This document shows positions 2,562 to 52,305 of a DNA stretch of 64,000 bases, one piece after another. Numbering within the stretch: the stretch's first letter is position 1; the number at the start of each line of letters is the position of its first letter. Source of the DNA: Cyanidioschyzon merolae (Eukaryota). Where the stretch lies: the NCBI GenBank assembly GCA_000091205.1, contig AP006484.2; one strand, 5' to 3'. The position numbers and the translations under genes were made by a program. The notes under the pieces are model-generated. The model did no database searches, had not been told where the DNA came from, and saw only the letters and a program-made list of their open reading frames with translations.

Positions 2562-5355
2562 ATACCTTTCCTACCCGCACAAGCGCAACGTCGAAAACGG
2601 AATTGTTTTCGCAGTCTACATACGTGGCAGAAGACCATGGAACGCTGAAGTACTCGCTCTGTTCCTGCCTTTCGATATTTTCTTGGAAGTTTTGTATACG
2701 TCTAGCCTTGGCGTTCAGAGTGAAGCAATAAGAGCATATGGATTCGTACGTTGGTTTAGAATTCTGGGTCGTGGATTCGGGTTAGCTCCTTCGACATTTG
2801 CCACTGGAATCCGTTACGAACACGGGTAAAGAGATGATTTACGACATCACCGAATCAGGGGTGATAGCGCAACAGACATCGTTATCCAGTGTATACAGGC
2901 TGGAATCCAATGTCATCTTTTCCTTGCGTTTAACATGATGGGGTCACATATCCGTCAAGTTTTCCAGCTTTCGCTCTCAAGGCAACTCGTGAGCGCAGGT
3001 ATTCGCCGCACTGGTTCGACGAGGAAGAATACTCGACTTTGTCACTCTTTGACTTGTTCAAAAGCTCACGTGACGATACTGCTCTGGAATCGCCCCGTAT
3101 AATACTCGACTCTGTTCAAAACATGAATCATACCGTTTTTGTAGACACCGACGAATTCGTAATCACCAGCACCAGCATGATCCACCTAACAGTATACGCC
3201 CTTAGCGACTCCCGTTTCTTCTATTCTGTTCCATTGGAAATGCAAAAACTGGAATTGGACTTGAATCATCGTAGCGATCGACTCCAGTGGGGCATGCGTT
3301 ACCGCTTTGCACAAACCGAGCGATCGCTGATCAAAATTGCTCTACTTGCACCCCAACATGGATTTCCTTTCCCGTGCTTGGTTCATCGTTGACAACACCA
3401 TGTTCCGGGAAACCGCCATCGAGCATGACAGTGTGCGGTCGCGCATGTATCGGACAGAGTACGAAAAGCGAGAATCGACCAGAAGAAGGTTACGATCGTC
3501 GGGCATGGCTCTGGACGTGGAAACGGAGGGCATCGAGTCGAGCCCTCTGTCCACGTCGAGGTCGTATACCGAGCAATGAAGAAAGCCTTCAAGCTGAGGT
3601 GGCCACCAGGGTAGAGAATATGGGAGACACATGGGGAAATGTTAGCAAAATACAAGTGTCACCGTTGCGAAGGGCGCACCAAGGCTTACGACAAAGAGCG
3701 TAAACATAGCGAGAGAAACCTTCACCGGAATCGTCGTCTGTTCATGAAACGCATAGCCCACAGCCTGAACCAGATAAGTCACGACTCGAACGCTGTCATG
3801 AACATCCCTCCATTGCTGGAAGCGGATCTAGGAGTAAAAGAGTTTCCAACGTATTAGACGCAGTAGATAAGCGCGCGGAAAGGTAGCTGTCGCAGAAGAA
3901 ACCAGGATGGGCTGGTATTGATGACGCGAGGAATACGCCAAAGATTCGTGTGTGTACGCCTCAGTTAGACGACTCGTTCCATTCTACTCTGACGAGGGCG
4001 CAGCGAAACGACGCGAGCTCTCAGCCGCATCGTACAACCCTAGCGGGGTGCGGATGCTCCAGAGAACCCTGTCCACGTACAAGCTTTCCATGATTTTAGA
4101 TACCATTCGCTAGAGGTAAATATGGATTGACTAGGTAGCTCTAATTGCCGAGTTGCAGCTTTCAGAGGCATCTCAGGCGACGCGAGAACTTTTCAGTTGG
4201 ACACAGAACGCGCTGCGTCTTTCGGTTCCGAGTACGTTCAGTTCCAGATCCGAGACTGCGTCCTGCCATGATACTTGTCCCGTGCGCATTTAGGATAAGG
4301 GAGGGCTTTTCTGTGGTTTGTCCCCGTTAAGAAAGGACGTTCGGAAAGGTGGAACCTTCCTATACAACATATGCATATGGGTTAGTGGCGATACGTCGCC
4401 GCTGTGCATTCCGTGGAGGTTCGGTCCCAGTGCCGCCTCCACCGCAGTCGAATGGTGTCCGTGTGAGTCGATGCCTCACGGCCTTGCATTGCACACAAAC
4501 ATGGAACATGGAAACGTGATCTTGTTAGAAAAGCTCCTGGGCAACCAAGCTGAAGCCTTACTCTACTTCAACGACGGTAGGAGTGCACAGTCTCGCTTCA
4601 TATCGCCCGTAAATGTGGATATCATCGAGGACGCACCAATCGCAATGTGAACGGGCTCCAGCCCAGGAAACAATAGACTCGACATGAAAACACGGGAATG
4701 AAACAGCACATTTGATGTTGCCGCCTTCCTAATCCATTCGAAACAGCTCACGTGGCACAATTGCCTTGTTGAGTAGCGTCGCTCATTTTCAGACAGACCT
4801 GAACGGGTGTACAAATTTAGGGGTCAAGAGCAAGGTTCGCTCTGGAATGCGCGCCCGGAGGCTTGCTTTGGAAACAAACTTAAACAAGAAGCTCCTCTAT
4901 ACCGTCCAACTATGTGTCATGATGCGTTTTTTCATCATCAGAGCAAGATATGCTGGACAGAGCACCTTGTCCGGCGCATGAGCGGTACGCCCACCGAGTC
5001 CTCCGGAATACACGGGGGATACCTGCAGCGCTCGCTGCCATACTCCCGTGTTTGCAGGACATCGGAGTTCAGCTTCGCTGCAACAAGCACAAAACGCCTT
5101 GATTGTTTGTCTGTCCTGAACTTTTTATAGTGTCTTCGGAACGGTAGCAGAGGCATATTTAACTTACGGAGACTTTTCGGGAACGAGGACCCACAGACGC
5201 TTTTCTCGAGCGGAAACCCGGTGCAGACACCGTCTCTGGTATCCCTGAGTTGGGGTTCACGCGAATCGGCAACCAGTGTCTGGTGTCGCTTTGGAGGGCC
5301 CATTCAAGCGCCTTGCTCGGTACGCTTCACGTGAGCGCTGCTCGAAGAGCCGAGT

Positions 5356-12570: not shown

Positions 12571-15516
12571 GACAATACTATGCTAACGGTAACGCAAACG
12601 CTCAGTTACAGCACACAAGTTGCCTGAAGAACCAGCAAACACCAACTCCCGGATGATCTGCTTGCAACCGTGCTTGCTATCCAGATACAATTCGATGATA
12701 CAGAAAAACGTTTACTGGAAAGTGTAACGGAATCGAGACGTTGATCTCGTGGCTGTCGCCAGCGCTGGAGATCGCACCCAATCGCCCGTGCGGATCTTTA
12801 TCGAAGCGGTGGAGGTCGCGATTCGTACCCTTCCAGGCTGGCATGTGTGTCGTTGCAGTGCGACTTTTTGTTTTCATGACCCGGGATGGATTGCGTCCGA
12901 CGCTGGATGCGACGTATCTACTCATGAGCGTGTTCGATGCGAATAGGATATGGAACTGCTCGTTCGGTTCCTTTCCGTCGATCCTTTTCCGAACTTGGTT
13001 TCGATGTACCGTTTCGAGATTGGACGTGCAGCGATCAGTGCTTTCGGATTCATACGTAATTTTAGGATTTTCGGTCGTTGATTCGGAGTGGCGTCTTTGA
13101 CGCTTTGCTGTTGGAATTCATAACGTGATCGCAATCAAGATGATTCGAGACGCGATCGAACGAGGATTCACCAAAGAACCAATATCAGGATCCAATGCGT
13201 CCACAGATATGATTCTCTAATCTTCTTGTCGTTTCTGTCAGACCAGCATGTTCAAATCACGCGTGCTTCAAGTTTTCAACCGTTCTGACTCAAGGCCTCT
13301 GGTGGGCGCAGTGATTCTCACCCTTTGAGTAACGAGGAATCAAACTCGAGGTTATCTCACACCGAATTCCTCACAGGATCATGCCGAACGTTTACAAGGC
13401 TTCTCCTGCAAGTTCATCGATTCCGTTCGAAACACGAATTCGGCTATCTTTTGTGGCCATGGACGAAGCGGTACTCCACAGGAAGATGAAGCTCCGCATG
13501 AGATCAGCGCCCACAGGCCCCCGTCCTTTGTGTTCCCATTGAAACCGGTGTTGAACTTTCTCATCGGAGCGATAAGGTCAGATGGAGACTGCGTCACCGC
13601 GCTGCACGGAGGCGGCGTAGAGGGATGGAAATCTTTCGATTTTCTGTCCAGCCTGGATTTTACTGCCTGTACTTGTTTCTTCATGGACTACATCGATTTC
13701 CGCAAATCTCTTTTCATCGAAATACAGAAAAGAATCAATATTGGGCTATCAGAGAAACTCAAGCTGATTCTCCGTGGTTCGACCAGACTGAACGCCCCCA
13801 AGGCCGTCACGAACAGGCTTAGGGAAACAAACGCGTATATCGATCACACAGCTTGTCCTCAGCACGAATTTGTGCTCGATGCTTTCGGCATCATTCACGA
13901 GGCAATCCGGGCTCGTCGGAACCTGTTTTCCACGGGCCTTTGGCTTCCGCGAACTGCGAATGTCCGATGAGGCATACTGAAAAGAGATGAACCAGGCCTG
14001 AAGAGCAAATGCATCATGCATGCGTATCAAGGGAGACACGCGGTCCACACACGACAGGTATGCCAGCGAAACAACTCTATGAACGAAACAAAGAAATCCT
14101 GGTGCTTTTCGAAACGAGGTGCGATTAAACGCCGGAGAACGTCTCCATTTAAAAACGATACACGTTCCTGAATGAAGCTCGTGTTTTGGGTGTCCTCATA
14201 GAAGCGACGCTGCGCACATCGTCATTCGAAGATGCTATGGTCTGAACAGGATACCGCAGGACGTACTTGCTTTTGCTGAAACACACAGAGCGCGTGCAGA
14301 AAAAATGCGTTCTTTTTTCGCCGCGAGCTCCTGCAACACGCTTGTGTCACGCCCAAGATCGCGTATTTTGGATGCGTCGAGGATCTTGTCGACCTGGAGA
14401 ATGTTGTAGAGGTACATTCCAGACTGAAGACAATTCTTGTTCTTGATCGTTTCGAGAAGGTGCTGGGTACACCTTATTCGCTCCGTGCTCTCTTGGACGC
14501 TGCGCGCACATCAGCTCCCCAACTGAACGACATGGCGGATGACGCGGACCTCATTCGCTCGGTGTCTCAATGCGAACTGTATAGCATAGAGAAGTGTGTT
14601 GTAAGATGCTCGGGCAGCGACCCTGAACCGTGTCAGGGTCCATGTCCAGCGGTGCATCAACGATTCGATGAAATGAATGCGAGCGGCCGACTACTCGCTT
14701 ACGGTGCTTGGCGGCACGACGGGGCGCTTCATGACCGGGGCTTCGTCGACGGCGACCAGCTCGGAAGATAGATGCACCGTAATGAACCTCCGTGGAATAT
14801 TCTGCGAGGGCGAACGCGCAGATGAGCAGATAGAACTGGCGCCTGTCAGCATTCTGCCGACGAAGCAAAGGCGCTTTTGCAGGCCGACGACTGCCCCGAT
14901 GCGCATGAAGAGAAGAGATTCTCGCCTTTTCCGAGCGCATCTCTCTGTCAGTTGTACCAGCGCAGGGATGGAAGCTTCTTTCGTCTACTTTTGTAGACGG
15001 GCATCCGCGCCGAGCTGCCGCAGCTGCGTCCGATTGAGAATAAGGTCATCGAAGACGAAGAGGAGCTGACTCCATCGAACTCTATGGAGCAGCCTTTCAG
15101 GCACGAAATGTGCCGGAGGCAACTGAATCCGATAGCAGGCAGCCGGTCAAATACCGGGAGGCGTCTATGAGTGGTTTTAGTTTACGCTCCATGATCATGA
15201 AGCTTTTTTTCCTGTTTCAATGATGACGTATCGCCATACCTGCAGGGCACGTTGAACGTGTGGTGCGCGTTGCTCGCACGCACGCATGCCCCGATGCGTG
15301 CACGCACGCATGCACGCACGCATGTCGATACGCAGCCAGCGCTGCCGTGCGTTTATCATCGAAAATCGCTTCTGAACTGGATACGAACAACGTATCGCGA
15401 TTCAGGCATTCCGTGGAGGTATCACGGGAAAGGCGGTCTCTTTCAAGCAGGTATTATACCAGCGTTTTTGTTGAAACGCTTGAACAAGCTGCTAGTAGCC
15501 TGCAGAAGTCTCCCTC

Positions 15517-16611
15517 ATGCAACAGAAACCCGAAAATATAGCGTTTGTGTCGGCAGCTTGGACCCGGCTTCGAAGTCAACGGCCGATTCTTGGCGGTACG
15601 ACCCGGGGGCTCACGCTGCCGAAACGAGCGCAGTGGCTGCCCTCTGGGGTATCCCTAGTCGTTAGACGACGGTGGCATCATTTGAATCCGTTTCGTGTGT
15701 GTGCCGCTGCGGATAGCGATGAGCGTGATCAGAGCCCGGTCGGCGGTGGCGAGGAGCCACCCACGGGACCCGGTAACAAGCCGGACAAACCTGTGGGCTC
15801 GCGTCCGTATATCGCAGTGATACCCGCACCGAGGCCGGTGTTGACAACAGGAATTATAGGCATCAACATCCTGACATACTTGGCGGAGCTCTACTTTGAG
15901 GTTGAGGGAAAACTCAGCGGGGCGAACTCTAACATCCTATTGGCTCTAGGCGCAAAGATCAACAGTGCGATCGCTGCAGGCCAGCTGTGGCGATTATTCA
16001 CGCCGATATTCCTGCACGGCGGCCTGCTGCATCTCCTAAGCAACACCTATGCATTGTACGCAATCAGCTATGAATGTGAAATGGCATATGGACCGCTTGC
16101 GTTTGCCGTGATCTACCTCGCGAGTGGCGCTTGGGGGAACCTGCTTTCCTACTGGTTCACGCCCTACTTGTCCGTAGGCGCCTCATCATCCATATTTGGT
16201 CTCTTTTCCGCTTATATTGTGTATCTGGTGAACAACTATGCAATTCTCGGTAGACAGGCGCGTCGCCAGATCACTGTGCTTGTTGCGCTCGTGGTTTTCA
16301 ACTTTGCATTTGGAAGCACACCAGGAGACGCTATCGACAACAGCGCACATCTGGGTGGTGCAATTGCCGGGGCGCTTCTGAGCGAGATCGTTGTCCCCGA
16401 ACTGATCCTTCGTGATGCGAACGGCCAGCTGCTGGAAAATTTGAAAGCGGAAGAGGTTGAGATGCAGTTACGAAAAGGAGGGAAGATTGAGGTGAAGCGC
16501 AAACCTGCTGCAACAGTTGTAAGCGCTGGTCTGTGGTTCTCTCTCTTGGCCTGCGGTGCAGCGATCTTGCGCTCGAGCCCGGCGGAGAATTTTGGTGGTG
16601 GCATGCTCTGA
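15517..16611 (+). CDS. Rhomboid-family intramembrane serine protease, with organellar-type N-terminal extension
   Basis: WRLFTPIFLHGGLLHLLSNTYALY is the rhomboid TM2 signature. The catalytic Ser lies in VGASSSIFGL, a GxSx motif where the canonical form is GxSG. The catalytic His lies in NSAHLGGAIAGALL. There are six or more predicted TM helices, and the N-terminus is basic and hydroxylated. Confidence 0.8.
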   Translation: MQQKPENIAFVSAAWTRLRSQRPILGGTTRGLTLPKRAQWLPSGVSLVVRRRWHHLNPFRVCAAADSDERDQSPVGGGEEPPTGPGNKPDKPVGSRPYIAVIPAPRPVLTTGIIGINILTYLAELYFEVEGKLSGANSNILLALGAKINSAIAAGQLWRLFTPIFLHGGLLHLLSNTYALYAISYECEMAYGPLAFAVIYLASGAWGNLLSYWFTPYLSVGASSSIFGLFSAYIVYLVNNYAILGRQARRQITVLVALVVFNFAFGSTPGDAIDNSAHLGGAIAGALLSEIVVPELILRDANGQLLENLKAEEVEMQLRKGGKIEVKRKPAATVVSAGLWFSLLACGAAILRSSPAENFGGGML

Positions 16612-18401
16612 ATGTAAACCGCAGAACAACTTGTATCGATAGATGGCGGGAACAGGCGCCGTTCGAATCCCACCAAGAACAGGGTTTGCAGGGAGTAGAT
16701 CACTAACTTGAGTTAAAGCATGACTGCCACGAAACAAGTTCCTTTGGGAAGCATCATACGCGCTCACAGCTGAAGCAGCTATCGCCCAATGCAATCAAAA
16801 GACTCGATTTTTTTGGCATCCAGAATCAAGTTCACTATCGTCGATCCCGGAGTGCAAAGCTCATGAGCGCTAGCACACCAGAGAATAGGCGGTCATCGCA
16901 TCCAGGGATAGCGTCGAGCGTTGGCGTGCGGTGGCTGTGCGGTGTGCGCACCTGCGCTCTGTCGTCGAGAAAAGGGCACTCGAGCAGATCCATCCGAGTG
17001 GTGACGCTCTGAGGCCCCCATCCGAAGCACGGCAGACACAACAGTATCGAGGATGCAGTTTCGGGGGGCATCGATGCGCCAGCACGCATATGCGCCAGCT
17101 CAGAGCCAAAGTTTTCCCCATTGATTTGTCTCTTGTCTTTTAAAAAGCTCAGTTCTGTTTATAGCAGTGAATTCTGGAATATCAGCACCATCATGCTTTT
17201 ATATTGTCCTTTCCTATTCTTGCAGGGATGCAGTAAAAGGCCTGTCTCTGATAGATTGACGAAAGTTCGTGAACAGAGTTGGTGTCGTCATTGCTCGCTT
17301 GCGACAAAGCAGTATTCGTTGTGAAAGTCATTCATACGACGGTCAGCAGGCGAACGAATCATGCATCTGGAGGTTCGTATGGTGAACGTCGAGCACGAAA
17401 GACATATCGTACTAAGCGCCATCGATGCTGCAGAGCTCTCGTCATTCCATTCTTCTGCGCCTGCTCTCTAAGAAATGCGAACAAAGAAGCCACCATGTGT
17501 GAAGTTTCTGCACAGTTCATATGACCGGCGATGCAGGGATGGGGATAGAAGACAGCGCGATTCTTTGGGCGACCGTCGCGCCTAGAACAAAACATGATCG
17601 ATTCCGTACTGCAACGCAAACGCTCATGAAAAGATGGACGGTGATCGTTTACCTCGATACAACATCACTCGGGAGATATGGTACACCTTTACATGGGTAT
17701 TCAACGAGCAGCAACCCGCTGTTCCTTAGTCAGAGACAAGCGAGTATCATCACATGATCAGCCCTGGTGGCGATGCTGTCGAGTCCTCGCCGACAACTCG
17801 CCAGAACGACATGATCGCTCAACGCCTCATGCGTCCTCGATACACTTTTGGTGGCTTCTTCTCCAGATATTCAACTGTTGGGGTATTAGACAACGTCGCT
17901 TTCCGTCGCTAATACATTGGTCTAAGAGGCCCCCTGCTGCGATTCCTATGGAACTGCTCTTCGTGAAATGCAAAGCGCTGCATCAGGAGCCAAGTTCGTC
18001 ATCTGGACTTGAATTTGCGGATACCAGCTAGCTCGTTGCGAGTCAGGATATGCGTCCATAGAGTTTCTGCAACAATAGTCGATTCAGGGACCTGTTCGAT
18101 GCGGCGCTAGCGAAAAACGTGCCGTCAAAGCTCGCAATGTATCTGGGCTCACTTCAACTGAGATCAATGCTGAAGGTTGGTCCTTCCCGCATTGTCGAGA
18201 AAGCGACGTTCCAGAGACATCGCCCCTGACGAGAGAACTTGTTGTCTGCATAAAATGCACCGCGACAAAAAAAAAACTGCTGCCATACCCAGGTTGCGCA
18301 AGTCGCTCCCGGAAGCGTCCGAGCGTGGTAGAGCGCTACGCTGGCTACCTGACGGATCAATAGATGGGGGTAAAGTTCGAGACCAAGTTTCATCAGTTCA
18401 T

Positions 18402-19826
18402 TTTACACCCACGTCACTGTAAAATACAATCGATTTATCACCAACGCCGCATAACCGAAAGCTCGGATCGCTTCAACCTCTCATAAGCACCAAACCGTTT
18501 GCGAGCAATGCTAGGCTTGCCATCCGTTGCCGTGCTCATCTCCGGCATTCAATACACCGGTATCGCTATTCCACCAGGCCTCGTCCGTAGTCGTCGTTCA
18601 GCGGCGCTGGTGGCAGCGCTCAACATTCACGATGACCCAGTTTCCAGCTCGTATCGATGTATTCCACACAACAACGAAAGTCCTCATCCATACAATGCCT
18701 GGCAGGTTCAGCTTCTGGGTACACAGCCGCGGTGCGCCCTTCGCAGCCGCTAACACTCGGTTGTCGTCAGGGATGCAAATGTTTCCGCCACACCGCCGCC
18801 TCATGCTCCCCTGAGCGCCGCTCTGAGGCACATCAAGACTTGGCCCAGCGCTCGCTTCTCGGCATTGACGGACGCCCACAGAGCGCTATTCGAGACGCCC
18901 TCACCCGCTGTCGATCCTGGTGCGGTTTCCCGGGATGTCGTCCCGCTTCTGGTTGATACCTTGCGCCGGTGCTCTGTCCGCTGTGCATACGATGGGGGCG
19001 CCATGCTCCCAGCCGCATCCGCATGTGGGATATTCGGTCATGTACAGGATGCAATACGTGCGGGACGGGAAATCCATACTGCACAACTGGATCCTACGCG
19101 TCGATCCGCCTATGCTTCGTCCATGAACAACGGTGACGCAGGCTCCACTGGAGTGCGGGTGCTGTGATGGCTCCAGCCCGAGTCCAAGGCGCTTTCGCGA
19201 GGAAACAGAAGAGACGGAGACGTCTCGCGGACGCATCCCACGAGATGTGATGTGCAGCCGTGGACTCGCGTCTCGTCGGTGTTCGCAACGAGACAGAGAG
19301 CGAGCGCGTGGACAGCGGAGATTGTTTCTCGAACGGAGTCGATGATTCGACGCACGAAGCTCAGTGAGCGTCTGGCACGATGCTGTGACATACTCGTCAA
19401 GCGGCAAGGTAGAGTGCTTTCCCTCGTCAGTCCGGACGCGGCACCTGCTGCGCGTACGTGTTGCCTCGAAACCGAACGATCGCATACTTGAGGCGTGTGT
19501 GGATTCGGCACGCTTTACGTAAGGAGAAGCGAAGAACAGACGCTTGCCCGTCTGCACTGCATCGTGATACCGTCCAGCTTACGAACACTGGGTCGAGGGG
19601 GTCGCGACTCCTCTTGGACTCGGTCAGGAGTACGGATAGCAGCGGCGAGGCGTCCGTGAAGTCACTTGGAAAAACTTCCGAGCCTCTCTGAATGACGCAC
19701 GAGTCCGTGAGCCGTCGTCGCTGGACTTGGAATACCGAAGCTGTCCATGTAAAGCATAGCTCGGAAAAATAGATACAGACAAATAGAACGAGCAGGTCAG
19801 TGTTTCCTTTTACCTGAAACGTGTAT
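18402..19826. repeat. Left copy of 1425-bp direct repeat flanking the GH31 gene
   Basis: It is collinear with 24365..25789 at a constant offset of 5963 bp, differing only by scattered point substitutions (about 99% identity). The same spurious ORFs appear in both copies at identical offsets. Neither copy has a recognisable coding capacity. Confidence 0.9.
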
Positions 19827-20177
19827 CGTGAAAAACGCGACAACTTGGACTACTGGAGAGTTGCGCCCCGCCATGAAAGACGTCAAACAGCATCGTAGAA
19901 GCTTAGCTTTCTGGTTTCGGTAACCACTGAATTGTCACACTCACACAGTTTACGTAAAGTACCTTCCTCATCAATAAAAATGAGAGAGCAATCAAGTCCT
20001 CGGGACGCTCACGTCTCCTGAGCCTTGGCCAATACCATATGGCGAGTAGCAACCTCCAGCGTTTCACTTGTCCGTTGTGGTTGCTTCTGGTCGAACGATA
20101 GACGCTGGAAAGACACGCTGGCCTCTCATTCGTTTCAGCTGCAGTAACCGCGTATTTATGTTCACTGGTTTTGTGTT

Positions 20178-23171
20178 TTGCGCGGATTACTACAGGGCAT
20201 GAGGGCGTACCAGAGCACGTGGCCCTGCGGGTTCGTCACGGTGCTTCCGGCAGACCCAGAAGCGCGAGCACTATGCCCGAGTGAGCACTGGCTTCCATGG
20301 AAACACGCCGAAGACGCCCGCTACCAGCAATTGATCGTCGATCTCATTTCGAAAGATGAGAGCGTTGTTGTGCTCATCCTCATAGAGCGAACACCAGAGC
20401 AAACCGCCGAACCAAGCACAAACGCTCCGCTCGAACCGCTCCTGGGTATCGCCTTGTCGTTGCCGTTACGCCAACCCACTCAAAGCGTGACCCCAAGTCT
20501 AACGAGCCTGAAAACAGAACACGAATCTCGACGAGCAGTGAACGAGCACCTCTCGCGGCTGACGCCACTGGAAACTGGTGCGCTGGACCCAGCACCTGGC
20601 TCCTCACCGCAGAATGTGCTGCATGTGCAAGGCACTGCACATGAAGGCCTCTTAGAGTGCCACGTTTGCTACAGCCAGACTAAGGCATATGCGCGCCTCC
20701 AGCGTGATGTACTGGTATGGCGAGTCACTGACTCCCCTGACAACGAAAGGTTTCCCGAAGTTCGGATTCACTTGCGAGCGGCAGGACGATGGTACGGCAC
20801 TGGCCACCTGATGCAACAGCACTGGCCCAGCTGCGCGGCTTGCCTTGAACTAGGGCCTTTCTATCCTTTCGATAATGGAGTGTGCGGGCTAGGGACCCTC
20901 GCTATTCCCGGCTGGTGTACCACCGGGGGATTTGCAATTCTGGTTGACGAGCGTAGGACACCCTATCTTCATGTAGGTATGAATGCACCACGTGAAACAG
21001 ATGCTGCAGCCTCACGTCGTGCCTGGACGGTAGGCCATGAGAACGCGCTGCGACAGGTACTTCCACTGCGAGACAGACGTTTTCCGCCTCGAGCCTTGGC
21101 TGGATCACACCAGAGCCCGTTACCTCTAGGTGACGACCTGCTCCGCATCCAGTCACGCTACGGTTACGACTACGAACGTGTCTGGCATCCATTATTGGGT
21201 ACTCGACTCGGATACGAAGACGAACTTGTGGTCTATGTGCATCTAGTGGTTACTCCTCGGCCAAACGTGCGCGCAGCGCGTGAGGCGCTCCTCGAACGCA
21301 TGGGTGCAGCGGCGACGGGGAGACGACTTTTGTCCCCACCTCGAAGCCTGCTCCAGCATCCTATTTGGACGACCTGGGCCCGCTTCAAGCAGAACGTAAC
21401 ACAGGAGGATGTTCTGAGTTTTGCGCAAGAGATTGCAGCGCGGAACCTGCCGCGCAGTGTGATGGAAATCGATGATCGTTGGTCCGAAGCCTATGGTGAT
21501 TTTCGCTTCGATAGGGTCAAGTTTCCGCAACCAGCACAGATGGTGCAGGCGCTGCATGCTCTGGGCTTCAAAGTAACGCTTTGGTGCACTGCTTTTATTG
21601 AGGAAAAGAGTCAAGCGTATCTAGAGGGGCGTTCGAAAGGGTATCTGGTTGCCGATGGGGCCCTCTTTCCCTGGTGGCAACCGCAGCCGGTCGCTGCGCT
21701 CGATGTGGCCAATCCAGAGGCCTGTCGCTGGTTCTTAGAGCGGGCACGAATCCTACGTGCTGAGACCGGGGTTGACGGGTTCAAGTTTGATTCAGGAGAG
21801 CCGTGTTGGTTACCCCGGCAGCTCGAGGCGTACACCCAGCTCGCATATCCCGGTCAGTATACGGACTGGTGGCTGCAGCGTGTTGTTCTGCCACTCATTC
21901 TTGGAACAGAGGCGCCGCAGGTCACTGGTACAGATCACAGGATAGGCATGGAGGCGAGTGCATCGCTTCCTGTGACCAGGATGGATGCTGGAAGCGTAGC
22001 AGCATCCGATGCATTTCGCGCGACTCGAGAAACCCCTTACCTCATTCGGAAAGCAGCAACTCGCGAAGCACAGCCCGAGACAGAGAGCCCGCGCTTCTCG
22101 GTAGAAGCCGAAGCGCGAACAAACTCAGGAGTTGCCGCCCATGCCGTACTGTCTGCGACAACCTTGGACGACGCAGAGCAGGTGCCTGTTGCTCCCGCCG
22201 AGGCTCGCGCAGCGACAGCCACTGGACTCGCGGCGGGTGCCCAGCCAGCCCAGTGGATCCCTTGTCTGTACCGCATGTTCGATCGTTTCTCCCATGACGG
22301 GATCGACAACGGGCTAGCGTCGGTGATCCCCACCATGCTTACCAGTGGTGTGTTGGGATTTTGCTTCGTTCTCCCAGATATGGTCGGTGGTAACGAGTAC
22401 GATCAAGTGCAGGCTGGCGCTGATCTCATGATGCGTTGGCTCTACGCGAATGCGCTGATGCCCTCCATCCAGTTATCACTGCCGCCCTGGAAATATGGAG
22501 CAAGCGTTGAGGCAGCGCTTGTTGAGGCTCTTGCTGTTCGGAAGCATATCCTCGAGGATAGCGGCCTTTTGGAGGCGCTCGTGCGTTCGGCTTGTGAAGA
22601 GGGAGCCCCCCTTGCACGGCCAATGTGGTGGCTCTGTCCTCAGCTCGCTATCTCGTGGGATATCGATGATCAGTTTATGCTGGGCGATGACGTGTTGGTA
22701 GCGCCAATGCTGACACCGCTGAGTGCGGTATACACCAGTGCAGCGATCGATGCTCTGAATGCAGACCAAGATACCCACGTACCCGGGGTGACGCATCCAC
22801 TCGGGCCGACGCCGTCGACTACCGCTACGCACACACTTGAGCGCGTGCCGCAACAAGTGCCTCCGAGCAAGTCGCCGCGTTCCTCATCCTGTACGCCAAA
22901 TATGACAGATTCACGTTCCCTGCAGCCTCGGCAACGTCAGGTCTGGTTGCCCCCTGGTAACTGGTGTGCCTATCACCCCAGCAGCAGTATCGGCGCAGTG
23001 CGGCTTGCTACGCCTGCTCCAGCACCGCTGACGGGTCCCTGCACGATCACAACGACAAGCGTTCTCCCGGTTTACGTGCGAGTCGGATCCGCCGTAGCGC
23101 GTTTCGTTTTCGCTGATGCTGAAGAAGCGGCGGCTCACCTGGTCGAAAGTCATGGTATCAACGACGCCTGA
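20178..23171 (+). CDS. Glycoside hydrolase family 31 protein (alpha-glucosidase/alpha-xylosidase-like, YicI/KIAA1161-like)
   Basis: MEIDDRWSEAYGDFRFD...FKVTLW is the GH31 (beta/alpha)8 N-terminal segment. GVDGFKFDSGE resembles the GH31 acid/base region (compare YicI VDCFKTDFGE). The motif VLPDMVGGNEYD is also present. The ~250-aa C-terminal tail is low-complexity, Pro/Ser/Thr-rich. Confidence 0.75.
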   Translation: MRGLLQGMRAYQSTWPCGFVTVLPADPEARALCPSEHWLPWKHAEDARYQQLIVDLISKDESVVVLILIERTPEQTAEPSTNAPLEPLLGIALSLPLRQPTQSVTPSLTSLKTEHESRRAVNEHLSRLTPLETGALDPAPGSSPQNVLHVQGTAHEGLLECHVCYSQTKAYARLQRDVLVWRVTDSPDNERFPEVRIHLRAAGRWYGTGHLMQQHWPSCAACLELGPFYPFDNGVCGLGTLAIPGWCTTGGFAILVDERRTPYLHVGMNAPRETDAAASRRAWTVGHENALRQVLPLRDRRFPPRALAGSHQSPLPLGDDLLRIQSRYGYDYERVWHPLLGTRLGYEDELVVYVHLVVTPRPNVRAAREALLERMGAAATGRRLLSPPRSLLQHPIWTTWARFKQNVTQEDVLSFAQEIAARNLPRSVMEIDDRWSEAYGDFRFDRVKFPQPAQMVQALHALGFKVTLWCTAFIEEKSQAYLEGRSKGYLVADGALFPWWQPQPVAALDVANPEACRWFLERARILRAETGVDGFKFDSGEPCWLPRQLEAYTQLAYPGQYTDWWLQRVVLPLILGTEAPQVTGTDHRIGMEASASLPVTRMDAGSVAASDAFRATRETPYLIRKAATREAQPETESPRFSVEAEARTNSGVAAHAVLSATTLDDAEQVPVAPAEARAATATGLAAGAQPAQWIPCLYRMFDRFSHDGIDNGLASVIPTMLTSGVLGFCFVLPDMVGGNEYDQVQAGADLMMRWLYANALMPSIQLSLPPWKYGASVEAALVEALAVRKHILEDSGLLEALVRSACEEGAPLARPMWWLCPQLAISWDIDDQFMLGDDVLVAPMLTPLSAVYTSAAIDALNADQDTHVPGVTHPLGPTPSTTATHTLERVPQQVPPSKSPRSSSCTPNMTDSRSLQPRQRQVWLPPGNWCAYHPSSSIGAVRLATPAPAPLTGPCTITTTSVLPVYVRVGSAVARFVFADAEEAAAHLVESHGINDA

Positions 23172-24364
23172 CAATGGGCTATTGCGGGCCCTGAAAAATT
23201 GAAGCGTCAACCGTTCGCAGCGCTGGAGGATCATGCAGATCCGCAGCGATATCGTGGTTTGGTGGTGTCGGGCTTTACCACTTTAGAGCACATGAAGATC
23301 GTTGATATCTGGAGCATCACGATGCTTTGCTGCTGGTGCCAGTGCTGGTGCTGCTCCAGGAACCACTGGAAATGACTTTGTACAGGCGTCATCACCCGCA
23401 TCTATGCTGTGACCTTGGCCGAGGAGTCTTCGTGGGGGAGCTTCCTGCTGCCCGCTGGGCCCCGAATAGTGGAACCCTTGTCATACTCATTTCAAAATGG
23501 TCTGAGATACAAGCTGAGCGAACGCATTGCTCGCCAGAGCGGTATCATTTGCGCACCAAGGACAAACAACAACCACACGAGGTTCAGTCCGCCGGGCTCA
23601 GAAACGTCAGGAAGGCGTCATCGTCTTAAGATGCACAAGTCTGTCAGTTTGTACAAAAGAGCGATCGGGCTGAACTGAGTCCGCCCGTTCGTAGGTAAAA
23701 GTGACGAGGTTCACCCTGGCTGGTGTCTTGGGTCGAATGCGGGTCCACACGGAGCACTGGTGCAAAGTTACGTGAGACGCTGGGAGGTTTTTCTTTGCCG
23801 TACCACCTGCTCCAGGAACAGCGAGCTTAGCACAACCAAGAGAAGTTGCTTCATGAGGGGAGGCGCTATGATGGCCGTCTATTCTCGAAACTGTCGACAA
23901 GTACAGAGGAGATGTGGCGCGAAAAGCACACGTGAGGTTAAGTGGTGCACGCCTTGCTGCAGTGCACGCGAAGACGCAGAGAAGTACAGCTGCTGCACGG
24001 GTGCAGCCTTGTCAACGAGGATGCCGTGTGTGAACGGTACGAGCAGTGCATCGTCGCTTCCGAGACGCTGCGCTACGCAATAGGGCATAGTTTGATACAT
24101 GGAAGCTTCTCTTGGCCCGATACGGAGGCGACTGACCGTGATCGACGGTTCGGGTATCCGTCTCTCTGAAACGACACTGCACCGTAGTCAAGCGAGTCAA
24201 GTGCAGTTCGCTATGCATCCAATATACGGGCGAGGTCAGCGCCGAAAATCAGTACCAGGTCTTGCTGGTGTATCGTGGAAGAAGCAGCTGCATAGGAACG
24301 TATTGGAACTGTGTAAGACAAGCTGCGAATTTGATCACTGATCTATAGTTTAGAACCGGAATTC

Positions 24365-25789
24365 TTTACACCCACGTCACTGTAAAATACAATCGATTTA
24401 TCACCAACGCCGCATAACCGAAAGCTCGGATCGCTTCAACCTCTCATAAGCACCAAACCGTTTGCGAGCAATGCTAGGCTTGCCATCCGTTGCCGTGCTC
24501 ATCTCCGGCATTCAATACACCGGTATCGCTATTCCACCAGGCCTCGTCCGTCGTCGTCGTTCAGCGGCGCTGGTGGCAGCGCTCAGCATTCACGATGACC
24601 CAGTTTCCAGCTCGTATCGATGTATTCCACACAACAACGAAAGTCCTCATCCATACAATGCTTGGCAGGTTCAGCTTCTGGGTACACAGCCGCGGTGCGC
24701 CCTTCGCAGCCGCTAACACTCGGTTGTCGTCAGGGATGCAAATGTTGCCGCCACACCGCCGCCTCATGCTCCCCTGAGCGCCGCTCTGAGGCACATCAAG
24801 ACTTGGACCAGCGCTCGCTTCTCGGCATTGACGGACGCCCACAGAGCGCTATTCGAGACGCCCTCACCCGCTGTCGATCCTGGTGCGGTTTCCCGGGATG
24901 TCGTCCCGCTTCTGGTTGATACCTTGCGCCGGTGCTCTGTCCGCGGTGCATACGATGGGGGCGCCATGCTCCCAGCCGCATCCGCATGTGGGATATTCGG
25001 TCATGTACAGGATGCAATACGTGCGGGACGGGAAATCCTTACTGCACAACTGGATCCTACGCGTCGATCCGCCTATGCTTCGTCCATGAACAACGGTGAC
25101 GCAGGCTCCACTGGAGTGCGGGTGCTGTGATGGCTCCAGCCCGAGTCCAAGGCGCTTTCGCGAGGAAACAGAAGAGACGGAGACGTCTCGCGGACGCATC
25201 CCACGAGATGTGATGTGCAGCCGTGGACTCGCGTCTCGTCGGTGTTCGCAACGAGACAGAAAGCGAGCGCGTGGACAGCGGAGATCGTCTCTCGAACGGA
25301 GTCGATGATTCGACGCACGAAGCTCAGTGAGCGTCTGGCACGATGCTGTGACATACTTGTCAAGCGGCAAGGTAGAGTGCTTTCCCTCGTCAGTCCGGAC
25401 GCGGCACCTGCTGCGCGTACGTGTTGCCTCGAAACCGAACGATCGCATACTTGAGGCGTGTGTGGATTCGGCACGCTTTACGTAAGGAGAAGCGAAGAAC
25501 AGACGCTTGCCCGTCTGCACTGCATCGTGATACCGTCCAGCTTACGAACACTGGGTCGAGGGCGTCGCGACTCCTCTTGGACTCGGTCGAGAGTACGGAT
25601 AGCAGCGGCGAGGCGTCCGTGAAGTCACTTGGAAAAACTTCCGAGCCTCTCTGAATGACGCACGAGTTCGTGAGCCGTCACCGCTGGACTTGGAATACCG
25701 AAGCTGTCCATGTAAAGCATAGCTCGGAAAAATAGATACAGACAAATAGAACGAGCAGGTCAGTGTTTCATTTTACCTGAAACGTGTAT
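24365..25789. repeat. Right copy of 1425-bp direct repeat flanking the GH31 gene
   Basis: See 18402..19826. This copy has identical length and differs only by point substitutions. Confidence 0.9.
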
Positions 25790-26149
25790 AGATCTCGTGG
25801 TGCGAAAAAACAAGATACTCGTGCGCTTGTTCGGCGAAACCTGAGAGCGTTCGCAGGATCTGTCTATATTCTGGAGCAGTGGACGCCCGCAGGTTCCAGG
25901 CCCCGGTCAAGACCCGTTCTTTTTCACGCAACGAGCTGCCGGAGACGCCCCTGCAAAAGCACATGTGCGCTGGCGTTTTTCCCATGGACGTCACGAATGC
26001 TACGTTTCGAACAACCGCCCAAGTCCAGAGCTCTTGAACGACTCCAGCAACTATCGTCACAGCATGCCTGTGCCGTTCAGATACAAAGCACGTTCTCTTG
26101 GAGACGCATTGCCCGTCCTTCCTGGACATCACGACGACACCTGCACCGT

Positions 26150-28339
26150 TCACACATTGGACACGTTTTTCTGGATACGCATCGCCCATCTTTCCAGGAG
26201 ACGAGATTTTCGAGCGAGCGGGTCCGCAGCTAACGCCCGAATAGCATCCCGCAGCTGAATTGTCGAGTATGCGCTCATCCCACGTGGCAACGTCGAAGAC
26301 GCAGCCGACGCTTCTGGTGCTGTGCTTGCGTGCTGCCGCGCAGCCAGCCGTGGTTTGGTACGACGCTCCGACTCCCAGTCTGGCTCCGCTGTGGTGCCAT
26401 CGTTGGCGTCTGCTCGTTCGTAATCGGTTGTAGAGGGACGCGTACGCGTTGGAACAGGACGCTTTCGGCGAGCTGCAGTCAGTGCAGCGAGCATTCCACT
26501 CAGCGCCACATTGGTCTCCTGGACTTTTTCCCGTTGACGAGCTTGCTCCAACGCAAGCCGACGGTGATGGAGCTGGACTCCAGTATCGGCGTTCTCACCC
26601 TCGTCTGGCAGGTTCAGCGCATATCGCTTTCGAGCTCGCTCTTCCAAGAGTTTCTTGCGCTGCTGTGCCAGCACACGTCGTACAGATGATTCGGGTACAA
26701 CCAGAGTCAGCGCGTATCGGGGATATGCCTGGCGCCTAGCTGCTGTCCACTGGAGCGTGCGCTCGAGCACTTGCCGCAGTCGCGTCTCTGCGGCCTGACT
26801 GAGCAGGGCAAGGCATGACTTGGCTGCCCGCAGGTTCCCGTGTCTCTGGAGCGCCTCCAGGAAACGCGCTGTTAACGCTTGCTGATCGAGGAGAAACGAT
26901 TCCGGTGCGGCGTCTACGACCGCAGTGACAACATTCTCCTGTTCCAGAAGAGCTCGTTCTCGTTCCAAGTCTACCTTGACGAGACGCTCTACATCGTCGT
27001 CATCGTCGTTGCCAGTATCTTCAGGCCCAGGGCTTGCAGCACTTCCGTCTGGTTCATTGGCGGCATTATCTTCATCGTCATCATCATGCTCCCTTGTCTG
27101 AGTACCTGCTGCTGCTGCCGACGATACAGCGCTTTCGATTGCAATCATAGGGCCAGCGCCGGCTGCTGCATGGCGTTGCGAAGCGAGGGATGCTCCACCA
27201 ACAACTCCGCCCGCCTCGCGAGCACTCTGCAACGACTGCGCGTAGGGTAGTGAGTTCGCACTCGGCACCGGCCTGGAGCCTGGCATGGATCGTCGCTCAG
27301 CGCTGGCTCCTCCGGGGCGCGTGCCCGAGGGAGTAGGGTGCGTTTTGGGAAGCGCAGTGACCTCGCTCCCGACGACAGCTGCCGGCATGCCCGTTCGGCT
27401 CGTTACTGGATCAGCGCTTGGTGGCTCCGTTCGTGATGCAGGTGCGGGAGCGTCTCCAGTTGCCGACCCAGCCGTCCCTGAAGTCGATGCTGCAGGTGCC
27501 TGCCGCGGTGCAGTGCAGAAGCGCACAAAGTCGCCCCAGAGATCCGGCACAGCACCATCCGTCGCTCGGTGAAAGAGTTCCCGCAGTGCTCTCCGAAATG
27601 AATGATAGTCTGTACGATCCTCGGCGAGTTCGCAGAGCTTATCACGAATCGCCCGTCGATACGAATTGAAGACATTCAACTGCGATGCATCCAGGCTATT
27701 CAAAGAAGCCTGACGTCCACGCATATGCTCTAAGAGTCGTCCCATGAAGTAACGCGCAAAGCGTTGGGCGAGGAAGAGCTCCGACTGGCGCTGCTGCGGC
27801 GTTCGACTCGAGTTCGGGTTCGCTGCTGGTGTTGCCCCCGAAGGCGCCGTTATCGTTGCTGTTGTTAGCGGCGGTGGCGGCAGTGGTGGTGACGTACCTG
27901 CACCAGTCGATGCTGCTCGTTCGCCTGCACCGGCTCGGGCTGCTGTCCCGATGCTTGCCGCACTCGCCACCGCGACTGGCGTCTGTGCTGCACCCTGGCG
28001 ACCGGCGAGGGCGCTCGCACTGGATGACGTGCTCAGTGGCACGGAAAGCAACGATGCTCCCACTCCGTTCCCATTGCCACCCTGTCGGTAACTGCTTGAC
28101 TGGATCAGCGACGCTAGGGTATCGATTTCCCGCTGTAGCGCCCCGTCGCCATCTGGAGCGCGTGCTCCCCGTAAACTAGAAACGTACTCGTCTAGGGCTG
28201 CACCGGGTGCAGCCGCTTCCGACTGATCCCTCGTTGGTCCGGCAGATCGTGCCCTAGGCGATGCCCTTCTCATGGAACGCGGTTGACAGGGGGTTTCCTT
28301 GCTGGAGTACGTCGCACCCGCGGACGCCTGTGCTTGCAC
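26150..28339 (-). CDS. TAF4: TAF4-like protein (TFIID subunit 4), highly low-complexity
   Basis: The C-terminal region contains ...LTARFLEALQRHGNLRAAKSCLALLSQAAETRLRQVLERTLQW...LAQQRKKLLEERARKRYALNLPDE...NVALSGMLAALTAARRKRP. This matches the conserved TAF4 C-terminal domain pattern (LLSxAxxxRLxxLxE… then ANLTALAAIGPRKKRK). The rest of the protein is Ala/Ser/Pro-rich with a DDDDEDN acidic tract. Confidence 0.55.
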   Translation of the reverse strand: MQAQASAGATYSSKETPCQPRSMRRASPRARSAGPTRDQSEAAAPGAALDEYVSSLRGARAPDGDGALQREIDTLASLIQSSSYRQGGNGNGVGASLLSVPLSTSSSASALAGRQGAAQTPVAVASAASIGTAARAGAGERAASTGAGTSPPLPPPPLTTATITAPSGATPAANPNSSRTPQQRQSELFLAQRFARYFMGRLLEHMRGRQASLNSLDASQLNVFNSYRRAIRDKLCELAEDRTDYHSFRRALRELFHRATDGAVPDLWGDFVRFCTAPRQAPAASTSGTAGSATGDAPAPASRTEPPSADPVTSRTGMPAAVVGSEVTALPKTHPTPSGTRPGGASAERRSMPGSRPVPSANSLPYAQSLQSAREAGGVVGGASLASQRHAAAGAGPMIAIESAVSSAAAAGTQTREHDDDDEDNAANEPDGSAASPGPEDTGNDDDDDVERLVKVDLERERALLEQENVVTAVVDAAPESFLLDQQALTARFLEALQRHGNLRAAKSCLALLSQAAETRLRQVLERTLQWTAARRQAYPRYALTLVVPESSVRRVLAQQRKKLLEERARKRYALNLPDEGENADTGVQLHHRRLALEQARQREKVQETNVALSGMLAALTAARRKRPVPTRTRPSTTDYERADANDGTTAEPDWESERRTKPRLAARQHASTAPEASAASSTLPRGMSAYSTIQLRDAIRALAADPLARKSRLLERWAMRIQKNVSNV

Positions 28340-30752: not shown

Positions 30753-31001
30753 AGTCAGCAGATAACGAATAAATCGTATACACGTAAGTTGCCAGCGCTA
30801 GCCCTCGTCTGATACCGTCCAGACAACGGCCAAGCAGCGTGCGCAAGCGATCGAGGGTAGGGCGTTAGAGCGTCGTGCGCTGCAACTGAAGCGCCAACGA
30901 TCAAAAGCATCGAGATCGCAAAAGAAGTATGACACTAATGTATAGAACTATACAAAAGGTGAATGCGCCTCTGACGCTGCTGCATGCTGGTGTGTGATGT
31001 C

Positions 31002-31158
31002 CACGCACAGCACGGCACGGCACGGCACGGCACGGCACGGCACAGCACGGCACGGCACGGCACGGCACGGCACGGCACGGCACGGCACGGCACAGCACGG
31101 CACGGCACGGCACGGCACGGCACGGCACGGCACGGCACAGCACGGCACAGCACGGCAG
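31002..31158. repeat. (CACGG)n microsatellite, about 31 units, with occasional CACAG variants
   Basis: The pentanucleotide run is visible directly. The overlapping ORFs in all frames (poly-HGTAR, poly-AVPCR) are artefacts of the repeat. Confidence 0.95.
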
Positions 31159-31649
31159 CGGCGCGCGAAACGTCGAGCAGACCTCTGGTCGGTCATGCAC
31201 GCACGCAGCATCCTCGTGCATCGAAGCTTTTCATGGCGGCAAGCACGTTGGAAATGAAGCAGGAACGATCATCCAGACGTGTACGTACTGTGTTCCATGC
31301 AGAACAGTGAATGCTGGAACAGCAGTGCCAACGCGTTCTTTCTGTTTCTATTTGATCCCCTCGCGGGTGTACATCAATGGGAATGCACCTTGGGATTGAG
31401 TCAAGGTCGAGCAACAAGGCTTCAGGCTACTACTGCTCGCTTTGGACGGAATGGCACCACTTGCACGAGTCTGATATGCTACGGTTAGCAGGTTGATGGA
31501 CCATCATTCATGTAGTTCGTACCCTGAACGTACTGCACCACACACAGAACTTTTCAAGTCTGTCCATGGGACTGCATCCTCTTCAATCGGTAGCAATCCA
31601 TAAGGTCTTTGATTAGTACCATCAAAGGAGCCATAAAATGTCGAGTTTG

Positions 31650-32200: not shown

Positions 32201-32212
32201 ACGCATCCGCAG

Positions 32213-33118: not shown

Positions 33119-33250
33119 TACACCGTACGTCAAGCCACGAGTGAGCGCTGTGCACCATGCGCGCCATGGCGCATCGGCTGCGACGCTGGAGCCTATACGA
33201 CTATCATACGGTTTCGAGGCCGTTGTATTCACTGCCTAGCGCAGCTGCGT

Positions 33251-52210: not shown

Positions 52211-52305
52211 CGCGCTGCGTTTCGACCCCCGCGGGAATGCGTGCTTGAGCGGCGCGCTGCGTTTCGACCCCCGCGGGAATGCGTGCCTGAGCGGCGCGCT
52301 GTTCT
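52211..52305. repeat. Tandem duplication, 2 x about 45 bp (gcgctgcgtttcgacccccgcgggaatgcgtgc[t/c]tgagcggc)
   Basis: Direct reading of the sequence. It creates the duplicated peptide in spurious ORFs 52089..52337 and 52103..52411. Confidence 0.85.

What the first reader, a model, noticed from the sequence alone, without database searches (positions are those of the whole stretch)
18402..25789. Near-identical 1425-bp direct repeats, 5963 bp apart, bracket the GH31 glycosidase gene
The two copies differ only by scattered point substitutions. Neither encodes anything recognisable. Their only cargo is the single GH31 gene and its flanks, so there is no gag/pol and no obvious TG…CA ends, and the structure does not look like an LTR retrotransposon. 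Direct repeats of this length and identity are efficient substrates for unequal crossing-over. They could drive copy-number change or excision of the GH31 gene. They could also mark a recent insertion of a repeat-flanked cassette, or betray an assembly collapse or expansion.
Basis: seen in the sequence. Interest (0 to 1): 0.5.

Follow-up and report, generated by a model that had tools for sequence, protein, structure and literature searches.

The report
Old dispersed repeat duplicated around GH31
Two real, nearly identical 1.4-kb non-coding repeats flank a glycosidase gene in the red alga Cyanidioschyzon merolae; they are copies of an old dispersed repeat that exchange sequence with each other, and the gene between them was always there, so the structure is ordinary.

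Summary
Window 18402-19826 and 24365-25789 are 1425-bp direct repeats, 5963 bp apart, with 18 substitutions and no indels (98.74%).

The window is the finished C. merolae 10D reference (GH31 is 100% identical to BAM78907.1). Independent metagenome assemblies reproduce all four repeat/flank junctions, so this is not an assembly artefact.

GH31 is not cargo. The order GidA-ChlH-rhomboid-GH31-TAF4-NFACT-MPC is conserved in Cyanidiococcus and another relative, and both lack the repeat.

The unit is one complete member of an old dispersed, non-coding family. nhmmer finds two more copies in the window: 2618-4004 (55% identity, full length) and 12929-13708 (59%, truncated). They share the same termini. 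The unit has no ORF family, Pfam or Rfam hit, coding periodicity, TG..CA ends or target-site duplication. It evolves at the neutral intergenic rate.

No other young copy turned up in the metagenome scan or the protein database.

Alleles read-linked to the junctions are shared between the two copies, and some are strain-specific in both. This indicates interlocus gene conversion, so the 1.26% divergence does not date the duplication.

Repeat-mediated deletion or amplification of GH31 is plausible, because C. merolae pops out cassettes between direct repeats experimentally. It is unproven: one solo-repeat-like contig and one loop contig are ambiguous. Interest is low.

The parts
18402..19826 (+). 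Repeat copy c1: a full-length unit of the dispersed family. Its right end lies 372 nt upstream of the GH31 ATG.
   Evidence: Metagenome contigs L013 and L016 span it with both flanks.
24365..25789 (+). Repeat copy c2, 98.74% identical to c1. It lies between the 3' ends of GH31 and TAF4.
   Evidence: Its left junction is in L007 and L008; its right junction is in L011, L012 and L014.
19827..24364 (.). Unique 4538-bp segment between the repeats (GH31 plus its flanks).
   Evidence: GH31-bearing contigs in other assemblies cluster at 4505-5224 bp, meaning they break at both repeats.
20199..23171 (+). GH31 glycosidase CDS (990 aa), 100% identical to C. merolae 10D BAM78907.1.
2618..4004 (-). D1: an old full-length family member (model positions 6-1407, about 55% identity). 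Its right end lies 56 nt upstream of the first ATG of an EF-Tu-like GTPase gene (732-2561, minus strand).
   Evidence: nhmmer E=7e-51. Homology stops at the unit ends when whole intergenic regions are used as queries. Family HMM.
12929..13708 (-). D2: an old, left-truncated family member (model positions about 590-1402, about 59% identity). Its right end lies about 367 nt upstream of the ChlH start.
   Evidence: nhmmer E=5e-42. ChlH ORF and metagenome gene call.
15517..16611 (+). Rhomboid gene, the left syntenic anchor.
26150..28339 (-). TAF4 gene, the right syntenic anchor. Its stop codon is 360 nt from the end of c2.

Best explanation
The two repeats are real. Each is one complete copy of a roughly 1.4-kb, non-coding, neutrally evolving unit from an old dispersed repeat family specific to the C. 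merolae lineage. GH31 is an ancestral resident of this locus. One family unit was copied as a whole, in the same orientation, to the other side of the gene before 10D and the sampled hot-spring strains diverged. Since then the copies have been kept alike by interlocus gene conversion, so their 1.26% divergence does not date the event. The pair does no known job. Its consequence is structural: it makes GH31 a potential target for repeat-mediated deletion or amplification.

Shown: the repeats are real, the unit belongs to a family with shared termini, GH31 is syntenic, there is no coding or RNA signature, the rate is neutral, and alleles are shared between copies.

Inferred: the copying mechanism (transposition-like or recombinational), the timing, and any actual rearrangement.
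For: Reality. The window is the finished 10D genome. Junctions J1-J4 recur in independent assemblies. L007 is one 5963-bp period plus a 123-bp exact end overlap. Many GH31 contigs are about the length of the 4538-bp unique segment.

Family. D1 and D2 are found by nhmmer at E=7e-51 and 5e-42. With whole intergenic regions as queries, homology ends at 18404-19826, which matches the pair's own boundaries. D1 and D2 share the right terminus to within about 5 nt. No flank extension is significant.

GH31 is ancestral. Synteny holds in L009 and L010, with no repeat homology there.

Non-coding and neutral. There are no Pfam or Rfam hits, no 3-periodicity, and no homologs of the 218-aa ORF beyond its own cluster. 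Between strains the unit diverges 1.2-1.3%, unique intergenic DNA 1.0-1.5% and the GH31 CDS 0.3-0.5%.

No other young copy. A 26-mer scan returned only this locus.

Gene conversion. Unit position 17 is T in both 10D copies and C in all 8 wild junction-linked sequences. The T..T haplotype at positions 40/56 occurs both J1-linked and J3-linked. The CGT and TAC haplotypes occur on both J2 and J4. Orthologous copies are no closer than paralogous ones.
Against: The copying mechanism is unresolved. There is no target-site duplication, no real terminal inverted repeat, no poly-A tail and no autonomous partner. I could not search the rest of the genome, so other young copies are excluded only by an exact 26-mer in one metagenome collection and by a protein search. 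Metagenome contigs are population consensus sequences, so sites far from the junctions could be mis-phased. The shared-allele evidence that does not depend on phasing rests on a handful of sites.
Confidence: 0.65

Rival explanations
1. Both copies are ancient, independent insertions from the family's original burst. They landed in the same orientation on either side of GH31 and have been homogenised ever since by gene conversion. No recent copying event occurred.
For: Gene conversion is evident. The c lineage is about as far from D1 and D2 as they are from each other, a star-like pattern. No other young copies exist. Differences are denser near the right end (7 of 18 in the last 227 nt, p=0.016), as expected if conversion is weaker near the edges.
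Against: Identity stays near 99% right up to both termini, with no eroded margins (0 differences in the first 187 nt and the last 19 nt). The model needs two insertions 4.5 kb apart in the same orientation, plus unbroken homogenisation while D1 and D2 diverged by about 45%.
Confidence: 0.22
2. A recent transposition or retroposition of an active non-autonomous element (a 'local hop'), with no gene conversion. The shared alleles would be assembler or population artefacts.
For: The duplicated segment equals the family unit end to end. D2 is truncated at one end only, as in 5'-truncated non-LTR copies. C. merolae has non-LTR retrotransposons with intact RT transcripts and transcribed repeats (PMC1955436).
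Against: There is no target-site duplication, tail or terminal inverted repeat. There are no other young copies. The shared alleles lie 17-56 nt from the junctions, so the linkage is at read level.
Confidence: 0.08
3. Assembly artefact: a collapse or expansion in the reference.
For: None found.
Against: The sequence is the finished telomere-to-telomere assembly. The 18 differences distinguish the two copies. J1-J4 are seen in several independent assemblies, and L013 and L016 span c1 completely.
Confidence: 0.02
4. A mobile, repeat-flanked cassette (LTR-like or composite-transposon-like) that brought GH31 in, possibly by horizontal transfer.
For: Only the A-B-A layout.
Against: GH31 is in conserved synteny in two relatives that lack the repeats. 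There is no gag/pol or transposase, no TG..CA and no target-site duplication. The nearest GH31 homologs are from cyanidiophytes and then green algae.
Confidence: 0.01
5. The unit is a functional upstream (promoter-proximal) module. D1, D2 and c1 each end 56-372 nt upstream of the start of a gene on the same strand.
For: The positions and orientations of D1, D2 and c1. The family shows patchy conserved blocks. Repeats in this genome are transcribed.
Against: There are only three cases. c2 faces the 3' end of TAF4. The unit evolves at the neutral intergenic rate. The orthologous promoters in relatives lack it.
Confidence: 0.07

Closest known systems
Low-copy repeats (segmental duplications) that undergo interlocus gene conversion and non-allelic homologous recombination. 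Example from general knowledge: the CMT1A-REPs flanking PMP22 in humans.
   Same: Direct repeats over 1 kb and over 98% identical bracket a single-copy gene. Paralogs share polymorphisms. Deletion or duplication of the intervening gene is the predicted outcome.
   Different: The repeats are much smaller (1.4 kb, 4.5 kb apart). Each is exactly one unit of an older dispersed family. No rearranged allele has been demonstrated.
Engineered direct-repeat pop-out ('marker recycling') in C. merolae and Cyanidiococcus (Takemura 2018/2019 cited in PMC8504449; PMC13353863).
   Same: A cassette flanked by direct repeats in the same organism is excised by intrachromosomal homologous recombination.
   Different: That system is artificial, uses shorter terminator repeats, and recovers excision by counter-selection. 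Here the configuration is natural and stably retained in every strain sampled.
The 'novel interspersed repetitive element' of C. merolae: 253 copies, about 3.2 kb, with a truncated WSV486-like ORF (Nozaki 2007, PMC1955436).
   Same: A dispersed, intergenic, lineage-specific repeat in the same genome.
   Different: This unit is 1.4 kb with defined ends, and no ORF family is detectable. Whether it is that element or part of it could not be tested. A second family in the window (42429-43844 / 57639-59062) is an equally good candidate.
LTR retrotransposon, or a pair of solo LTRs.
   Same: Long direct repeats a few kb apart.
   Different: It has no TG..CA, target-site duplication, PBS/PPT or gag/pol. 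The interior is an ancestral host gene. No LTR elements were reported for this genome.
Bacterial-type composite transposon.
   Same: Two copies of an element flank a cargo gene.
   Different: The flanking units have no transposase or terminal inverted repeats, and the 'cargo' is syntenic in relatives.

Membership tests
LTR retrotransposon | LTRs begin with TG and end with CA | tested here: not met
   The unit starts TTTACACCC and ends ACGTGTAT.
LTR retrotransposon | A 4-6 bp target-site duplication flanks the whole element | tested here: not met
   The left flank ends ...GTTCAT and the right flank begins AGATCT....
LTR retrotransposon | Internal gag/pol, with PBS and PPT next to the LTRs | tested here: not met
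   Only GH31 is recognisable inside. The sequence after c1 is CGTGAAAAACGCG and the sequence before c2 is ...AACCGGAATTC. Neither is a tRNA-complementary site or a purine tract.
Mobile cassette / composite transposon carrying GH31 | The cargo is absent from the orthologous site in relatives | tested here: not met
   The rhomboid-GH31-TAF4 order is conserved in L009 (Cyanidiococcus) and L010.
Mobile cassette / composite transposon carrying GH31 | The flanking elements encode a transposase or have terminal inverted repeats | tested here: not met
   There are no Pfam hits. Only a 5-nt TACAC/GTGTA inverted match is present.
Dispersed (interspersed) repeat family | Several copies at unrelated loci whose homology ends at common termini | tested here: met
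   c1, c2, D1 and D2. Homology stops at 18404-19826 with whole-intergenic queries. D1 and D2 share the right end.
Nozaki 2007 WSV486-like interspersed element | A truncated ORF with BLASTX similarity to WSSV WSV486, and a mean size of about 3.2 kb | not testable with these tools
The unit is 1.4 kb, and its longest ORF has no homologs outside its own cluster.
Non-LTR retrotransposon-derived element | 5' truncation with a constant 3' end | tested here: inconclusive
   D2 lacks model positions 1 to about 590 but keeps the right end. This is a single case.
Non-LTR retrotransposon-derived element | A 3' tail (poly-A or microsatellite), a target-site duplication, or RT/EN coding remnants | tested here: not met
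Low-copy repeat pair under interlocus gene conversion (NAHR substrate) | Direct repeats of at least 1 kb and at least 90% identity on one chromosome | tested here: met
   1425 bp at 98.74% identity, in the same orientation.
Low-copy repeat pair under interlocus gene conversion (NAHR substrate) | Polymorphisms shared between paralogs, or lineage-specific alleles present in both copies | tested here: met
   Unit position 17 is T/T in 10D and C in all wild J1- and J3-linked sequences. The 40/56 T..T haplotype occurs on both junction types. CGT and TAC each occur on both J2 and J4.
Low-copy repeat pair under interlocus gene conversion (NAHR substrate) | Observed deletion, duplication or circle products | tested here: inconclusive
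   L015 joins J1, the unit and about 10 nt of J4. L007 is circular-looking. Both are also what assemblers produce from an A-B-A layout.
Simple tandem duplication (period 5963 bp) | Homology continues past the repeat into a second copy of the unique segment | tested here: not met
   Identity drops to background at 25790, and no flank homology is found.

The most novel reading that the evidence does not exclude
The repeat pair is an active natural pop-out switch. In hot-spring populations, recombination between c1 and c2 would generate GH31-less chromosomes carrying a solo repeat (like contig L015) and 5963-bp GH31 circles or amplified arrays (like loop contig L007). That would give a presence/absence or copy-number polymorphism of a glycosidase in one of the most streamlined eukaryotic genomes.
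Probability: 0.1. Interest if true: 0.5.

Novelty: new member of a known kind. Interest (0 to 1): 0.2.

Why it matters
The result mainly closes questions. The repeat is real, GH31 is not a mobile or horizontally acquired cassette, and the repeat is one unit of an old dispersed family.

Three things have modest value:

- It gives a clean, small example of concerted evolution between two 1.4-kb paralogs in a haploid alga with efficient homologous recombination, visible from junction-linked alleles in environmental assemblies.
- It flags GH31 (CMB locus, chromosome 2) as a gene whose loss or amplification could occur spontaneously in laboratory 10D lines. That matters to people who use this model strain.
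- It shows that the longer intergenic regions of C. merolae at this locus, compared with Cyanidiococcus, are built from old repeat units that standard BLAST misses and profile searches detect.

Tried and rejected
- Coding content of the unit. Pfam on all ORFs of 60 aa or more in the unit and flanks gave no hits. A search of 5.8 billion proteins with the 218-aa ORF found only its own 98% cluster. Substitutions among c1, D1 and D2 show no 3-periodicity. tblastx hits appear in several frames at once, which indicates DNA-level rather than protein-level homology.
- Structured RNA. Rfam at E≤1 over 16600-26200 found nothing.
- Homology in relatives. blastn, tblastx and the family HMM against L009 and L010 found nothing.
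- Degenerate homology beyond the repeat ends. blastn with word size 7 and an anchored extension test against 1500 random intergenic pairs were not significant (best p=0.06). An apparent 45-nt extension of c2/D1 homology is therefore not accepted.
- LTR, Helitron or TIR hallmarks and target-site duplications at either copy: none. The GAATTC and AGATCT palindromes abutting c2 are natural, because the same junctions occur in metagenomes.
- Exact look-ups of the 10D GH31 protein, the 218-aa ORF and P0082 in the contig index: not on record.
- Viral and prokaryotic collections scanned with a degenerate family block: 0 hits.
- Clustering of the four copies within 23 kb: p≈0.14 by my own range statistic, so no claim is made.
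- Link to the WSV486-like element: could not be tested, and no further literature exists.
- Using L015 as proof of a GH31 deletion allele: rejected as insufficient. It extends only about 10 nt into the flank, with two mismatches to the 10D sequence (one inside the unit, one in the flank). The same assembly leaves L014 unjoined, which implies a fork in the assembly graph.
Full report
**Observation**

Comparing the window with itself at an offset of 5963 bp, identity rises from about 25% to 96-100% exactly at 18402/24365. It falls back after 19826/25789. The two 1425-bp segments differ at 18 positions (11 transitions, 7 transversions) and have no indels, which is 98.74% identity.

The 4538 bp between the copies hold one recognisable gene, a GH31 glycosidase (ATG 20199 to stop 23171; PF01055 and PF21365). 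Its closest solved relatives are MYORG and GH31 alpha-galactosidases. No other ORF in the repeats or their flanks matches Pfam. Rfam finds nothing between 16600 and 26200.

**Source and reality**

The neighbours are eukaryotic: rhomboid at 15517-16611 and TAF4 at 26150-28339 on the minus strand. Further upstream lie GidA and the Mg-chelatase H subunit.

The GH31 protein is 100% identical to Cyanidioschyzon merolae 10D BAM78907.1, which sits on a 457,013-bp record. That is the length of chromosome 2 in the telomere-to-telomere, Sanger/BAC-finished genome (PMC1955436).

Independent metagenome assemblies about 99% identical to the window reproduce every junction:
- Left flank into c1 (J1): L001, L002, L004, L013, L015, L016.
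- c1 into the GH31 side (J2): L007, L008, L013, L016.
- GH31 side into c2 (J3): L007, L008.
- c2 into the TAF4 side (J4): L011, L012, L014.

L013 and L016 span c1 with both flanks. L007 is 6086 bp, which is one 5963-bp period plus an exact 123-bp end overlap. That is what an assembler produces when it loops through collapsed repeats. At least nine other GH31-bearing contigs are 4505-5224 bp long, close to the 4538-bp unique segment, so they break at both repeats. An assembly artefact is excluded for practical purposes.

**GH31 was there first**

In Cyanidiococcus yangmingshanensis (L009, GCA_026122185.1; GH31 54% identical) the gene order is GidA, ChlH(-), rhomboid, GH31, TAF4(-), NFACT-R, MPC, LIDHydrolase, as in the window. 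The same holds in a second relative (L010; 53%).

Their rhomboid-GH31 and GH31-TAF4 spacers are about 0.95 and 1.16 kb. In C. merolae they are 3.59 and 2.98 kb. The relatives have no detectable homology to the repeat or to the C. merolae spacers by blastn, tblastx or a family HMM. The 'inserted cassette' and 'horizontal GH31' readings therefore fail. The repeats came to the gene, not the gene with the repeats.

**What the unit is**

BLAST finds no third copy, but nhmmer does:
- D1 at 2618-4004 (minus strand) aligns to unit positions 6-1407 at about 55% identity (E=7e-51).
- D2 at 12929-13708 (minus strand) aligns to positions about 590-1402 at about 59% identity (E=5e-42).

When whole intergenic regions are used as queries, homology between the c1 region and D1 stops at 18404-19826, the boundaries of the near-identical pair. 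D1 and D2 share the right terminus to within about 5 nt. An anchored extension test finds no significant homology in any flank (best p=0.06).

The duplicated segment is therefore exactly one unit of a discrete, old dispersed family and not an arbitrary stretch of DNA.

The family shows:
- no long ORF in any copy;
- no codon periodicity in its substitutions;
- no protein relatives of its longest ORF among 5.8 billion sequences other than the same locus in metagenomes (P0087);
- no TG..CA ends, target-site duplication, tail or real terminal inverted repeat.

Between 10D and wild strains the unit diverges by 1.2-1.3%. Neighbouring unique intergenic DNA diverges 1.0-1.5% and the GH31 CDS 0.3-0.5%. 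The unit evolves neutrally.

Nozaki et al. report no LTR elements in this genome. They do report 253 copies of a roughly 3.2-kb interspersed element with a WSV486-like ORF remnant. I could not test whether the present family is that element.

**Why the two copies are so alike**

A scan of JGI metagenome contigs for a 26-mer about 30 nt inside the unit's right end returned six contigs, all from this locus. No other young copy is visible.

Alleles physically linked to the junctions are shared between the copies:
- Unit position 17 is T in both 10D copies but C in all six J1-linked and both J3-linked wild sequences.
- The T..T haplotype at positions 40/56 is J1-linked in L002 and J3-linked in L007 and L008.
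- At the right end, the CGT and TAC haplotypes (109-122 nt from the junction) each occur on both J2 and J4.
- Position 1406 varies on J2.

Over the full unit, c1 of 10D is no closer to c1 of wild strains (17-19 differences) than to its own c2 (18 differences). 10D c2 is equally close to a wild c1 and a wild c2 (10 of 1303 each).

This is the signature of interlocus gene conversion. Mis-phasing by assemblers could add to the mosaic seen far from the junctions, but it cannot explain sites 17-56 nt from a junction. The 1.26% divergence is therefore not a clock.

Two histories remain open. In one, a whole unit was copied across GH31 at some time before the strains diverged. I prefer this because identity is undiminished right up to both termini. 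In the other, two ancient insertions have been homogenised ever since. The physical copying mechanism is not identified.

**Consequences**

C. merolae 10D is haploid and has efficient homologous recombination. Cassettes flanked by direct repeats are excised by intrachromosomal recombination in the laboratory (PMC8504449; PMC13353863). Deletion or amplification of GH31 through c1 x c2 recombination is therefore mechanistically expected.

Contig L015 joins the rhomboid-side flank, one unit and about 10 nt of the TAF4-side flank. That looks like the deletion product, and L007 looks like the circle. Both are also routine assembler outcomes for an A-B-A layout. The L015 tail is short and differs from the 10D sequence at two positions (one just inside the unit, one in the flank). 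The same assembly leaves the overlapping contig L014 unjoined. I therefore treat rearrangement as unproven. All sampled populations retain GH31 (58-member 99% cluster).

**Verdict**

The structure is a low-copy direct-repeat pair made of an old dispersed repeat unit, undergoing concerted evolution around an ancestral gene. This is a known kind of structure in a well-studied genome, so interest is low.

Noticed in passing
window 2618-4004, 12929-13708, 18402-19826: In three of the four family copies (D1, D2, c1), the unit's right end points at the start of a same-strand gene 56-372 nt away (EF-Tu-like GTPase, ChlH, GH31). c2 is the exception and faces the 3' end of TAF4. This could reflect an insertion preference, promoter use, or chance with n=3.
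   Followed up: partly
L015 (Ga0078972_1007737), equivalent to window 15225-19826 plus 25790-25799: A metagenome contig joins the rhomboid-side flank, one repeat unit and about 10 nt of the TAF4-side flank. It is either a solo-repeat (GH31-deleted) allele or an assembler walk through collapsed repeats. The same sample also has a separate J4 contig (L014) with a different tail haplotype.
   Followed up: partly
window 42429-43844 vs 57639-59062 (inverted); fragments at 39111-39376, 31849-32160, 15053-15271: A second, unrelated dispersed repeat family (about 71% identity over 1.4 kb). It may be the published roughly 3.2-kb interspersed element of C. merolae.
   Followed up: no
window 17149-17565 vs 31289-31710: A third diverged dispersed repeat (nhmmer E=3e-21). 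One copy lies in the spacer just left of c1.
   Followed up: no
window 32084-33200: A long tandem array of a 43-bp unit (about 26 copies, about 94% identity) in a low-GC, strongly AT-skewed stretch.
   Followed up: no
window 30970-31189; 62447-62694; 52864-52968; 52211-52294: Simple and short tandem repeats: (GCACG)n, CCTAGATCG 9-mer arrays, a 32-bp x3 repeat containing TGCATGCA, and a 42-bp x2 repeat.
   Followed up: no
window 24359-24364 and 25790-25795: c2 is abutted by two palindromic hexamers, GAATTC on the left and AGATCT on the right. The same junctions occur in wild metagenome contigs, so this is natural and not a cloning scar. The significance is unknown.
   Followed up: partly
window 20199-23171: The gene annotated 'similar to alpha-glucosidase' is closest, among solved structures, to MYORG and bacterial GH31 alpha-galactosidases (E=2e-69 and 1e-48) rather than to alpha-glucosidases. 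Its N-terminal stretch of about 350 aa has no Pfam match.
   Followed up: partly
window 16612-20198 and 23172-26149 vs L009 9053-10000 and 12869-14024: Intergenic spacers at this syntenic locus are about three times longer in C. merolae than in Cyanidiococcus. Roughly half of the excess is the 1425-bp repeat units (one per spacer), and other diverged repeats visible only to profile search account for some more (e.g. 17149-17565).
   Followed up: partly
window 18402-19826 (10D c1): 10D c1 carries several private alleles (19323 T, 19326 T, 19600 G, 19626-7 AG) that are absent from 10D c2 and from all wild contigs. c1 therefore looks the more derived copy in the laboratory strain's lineage.
   Followed up: no
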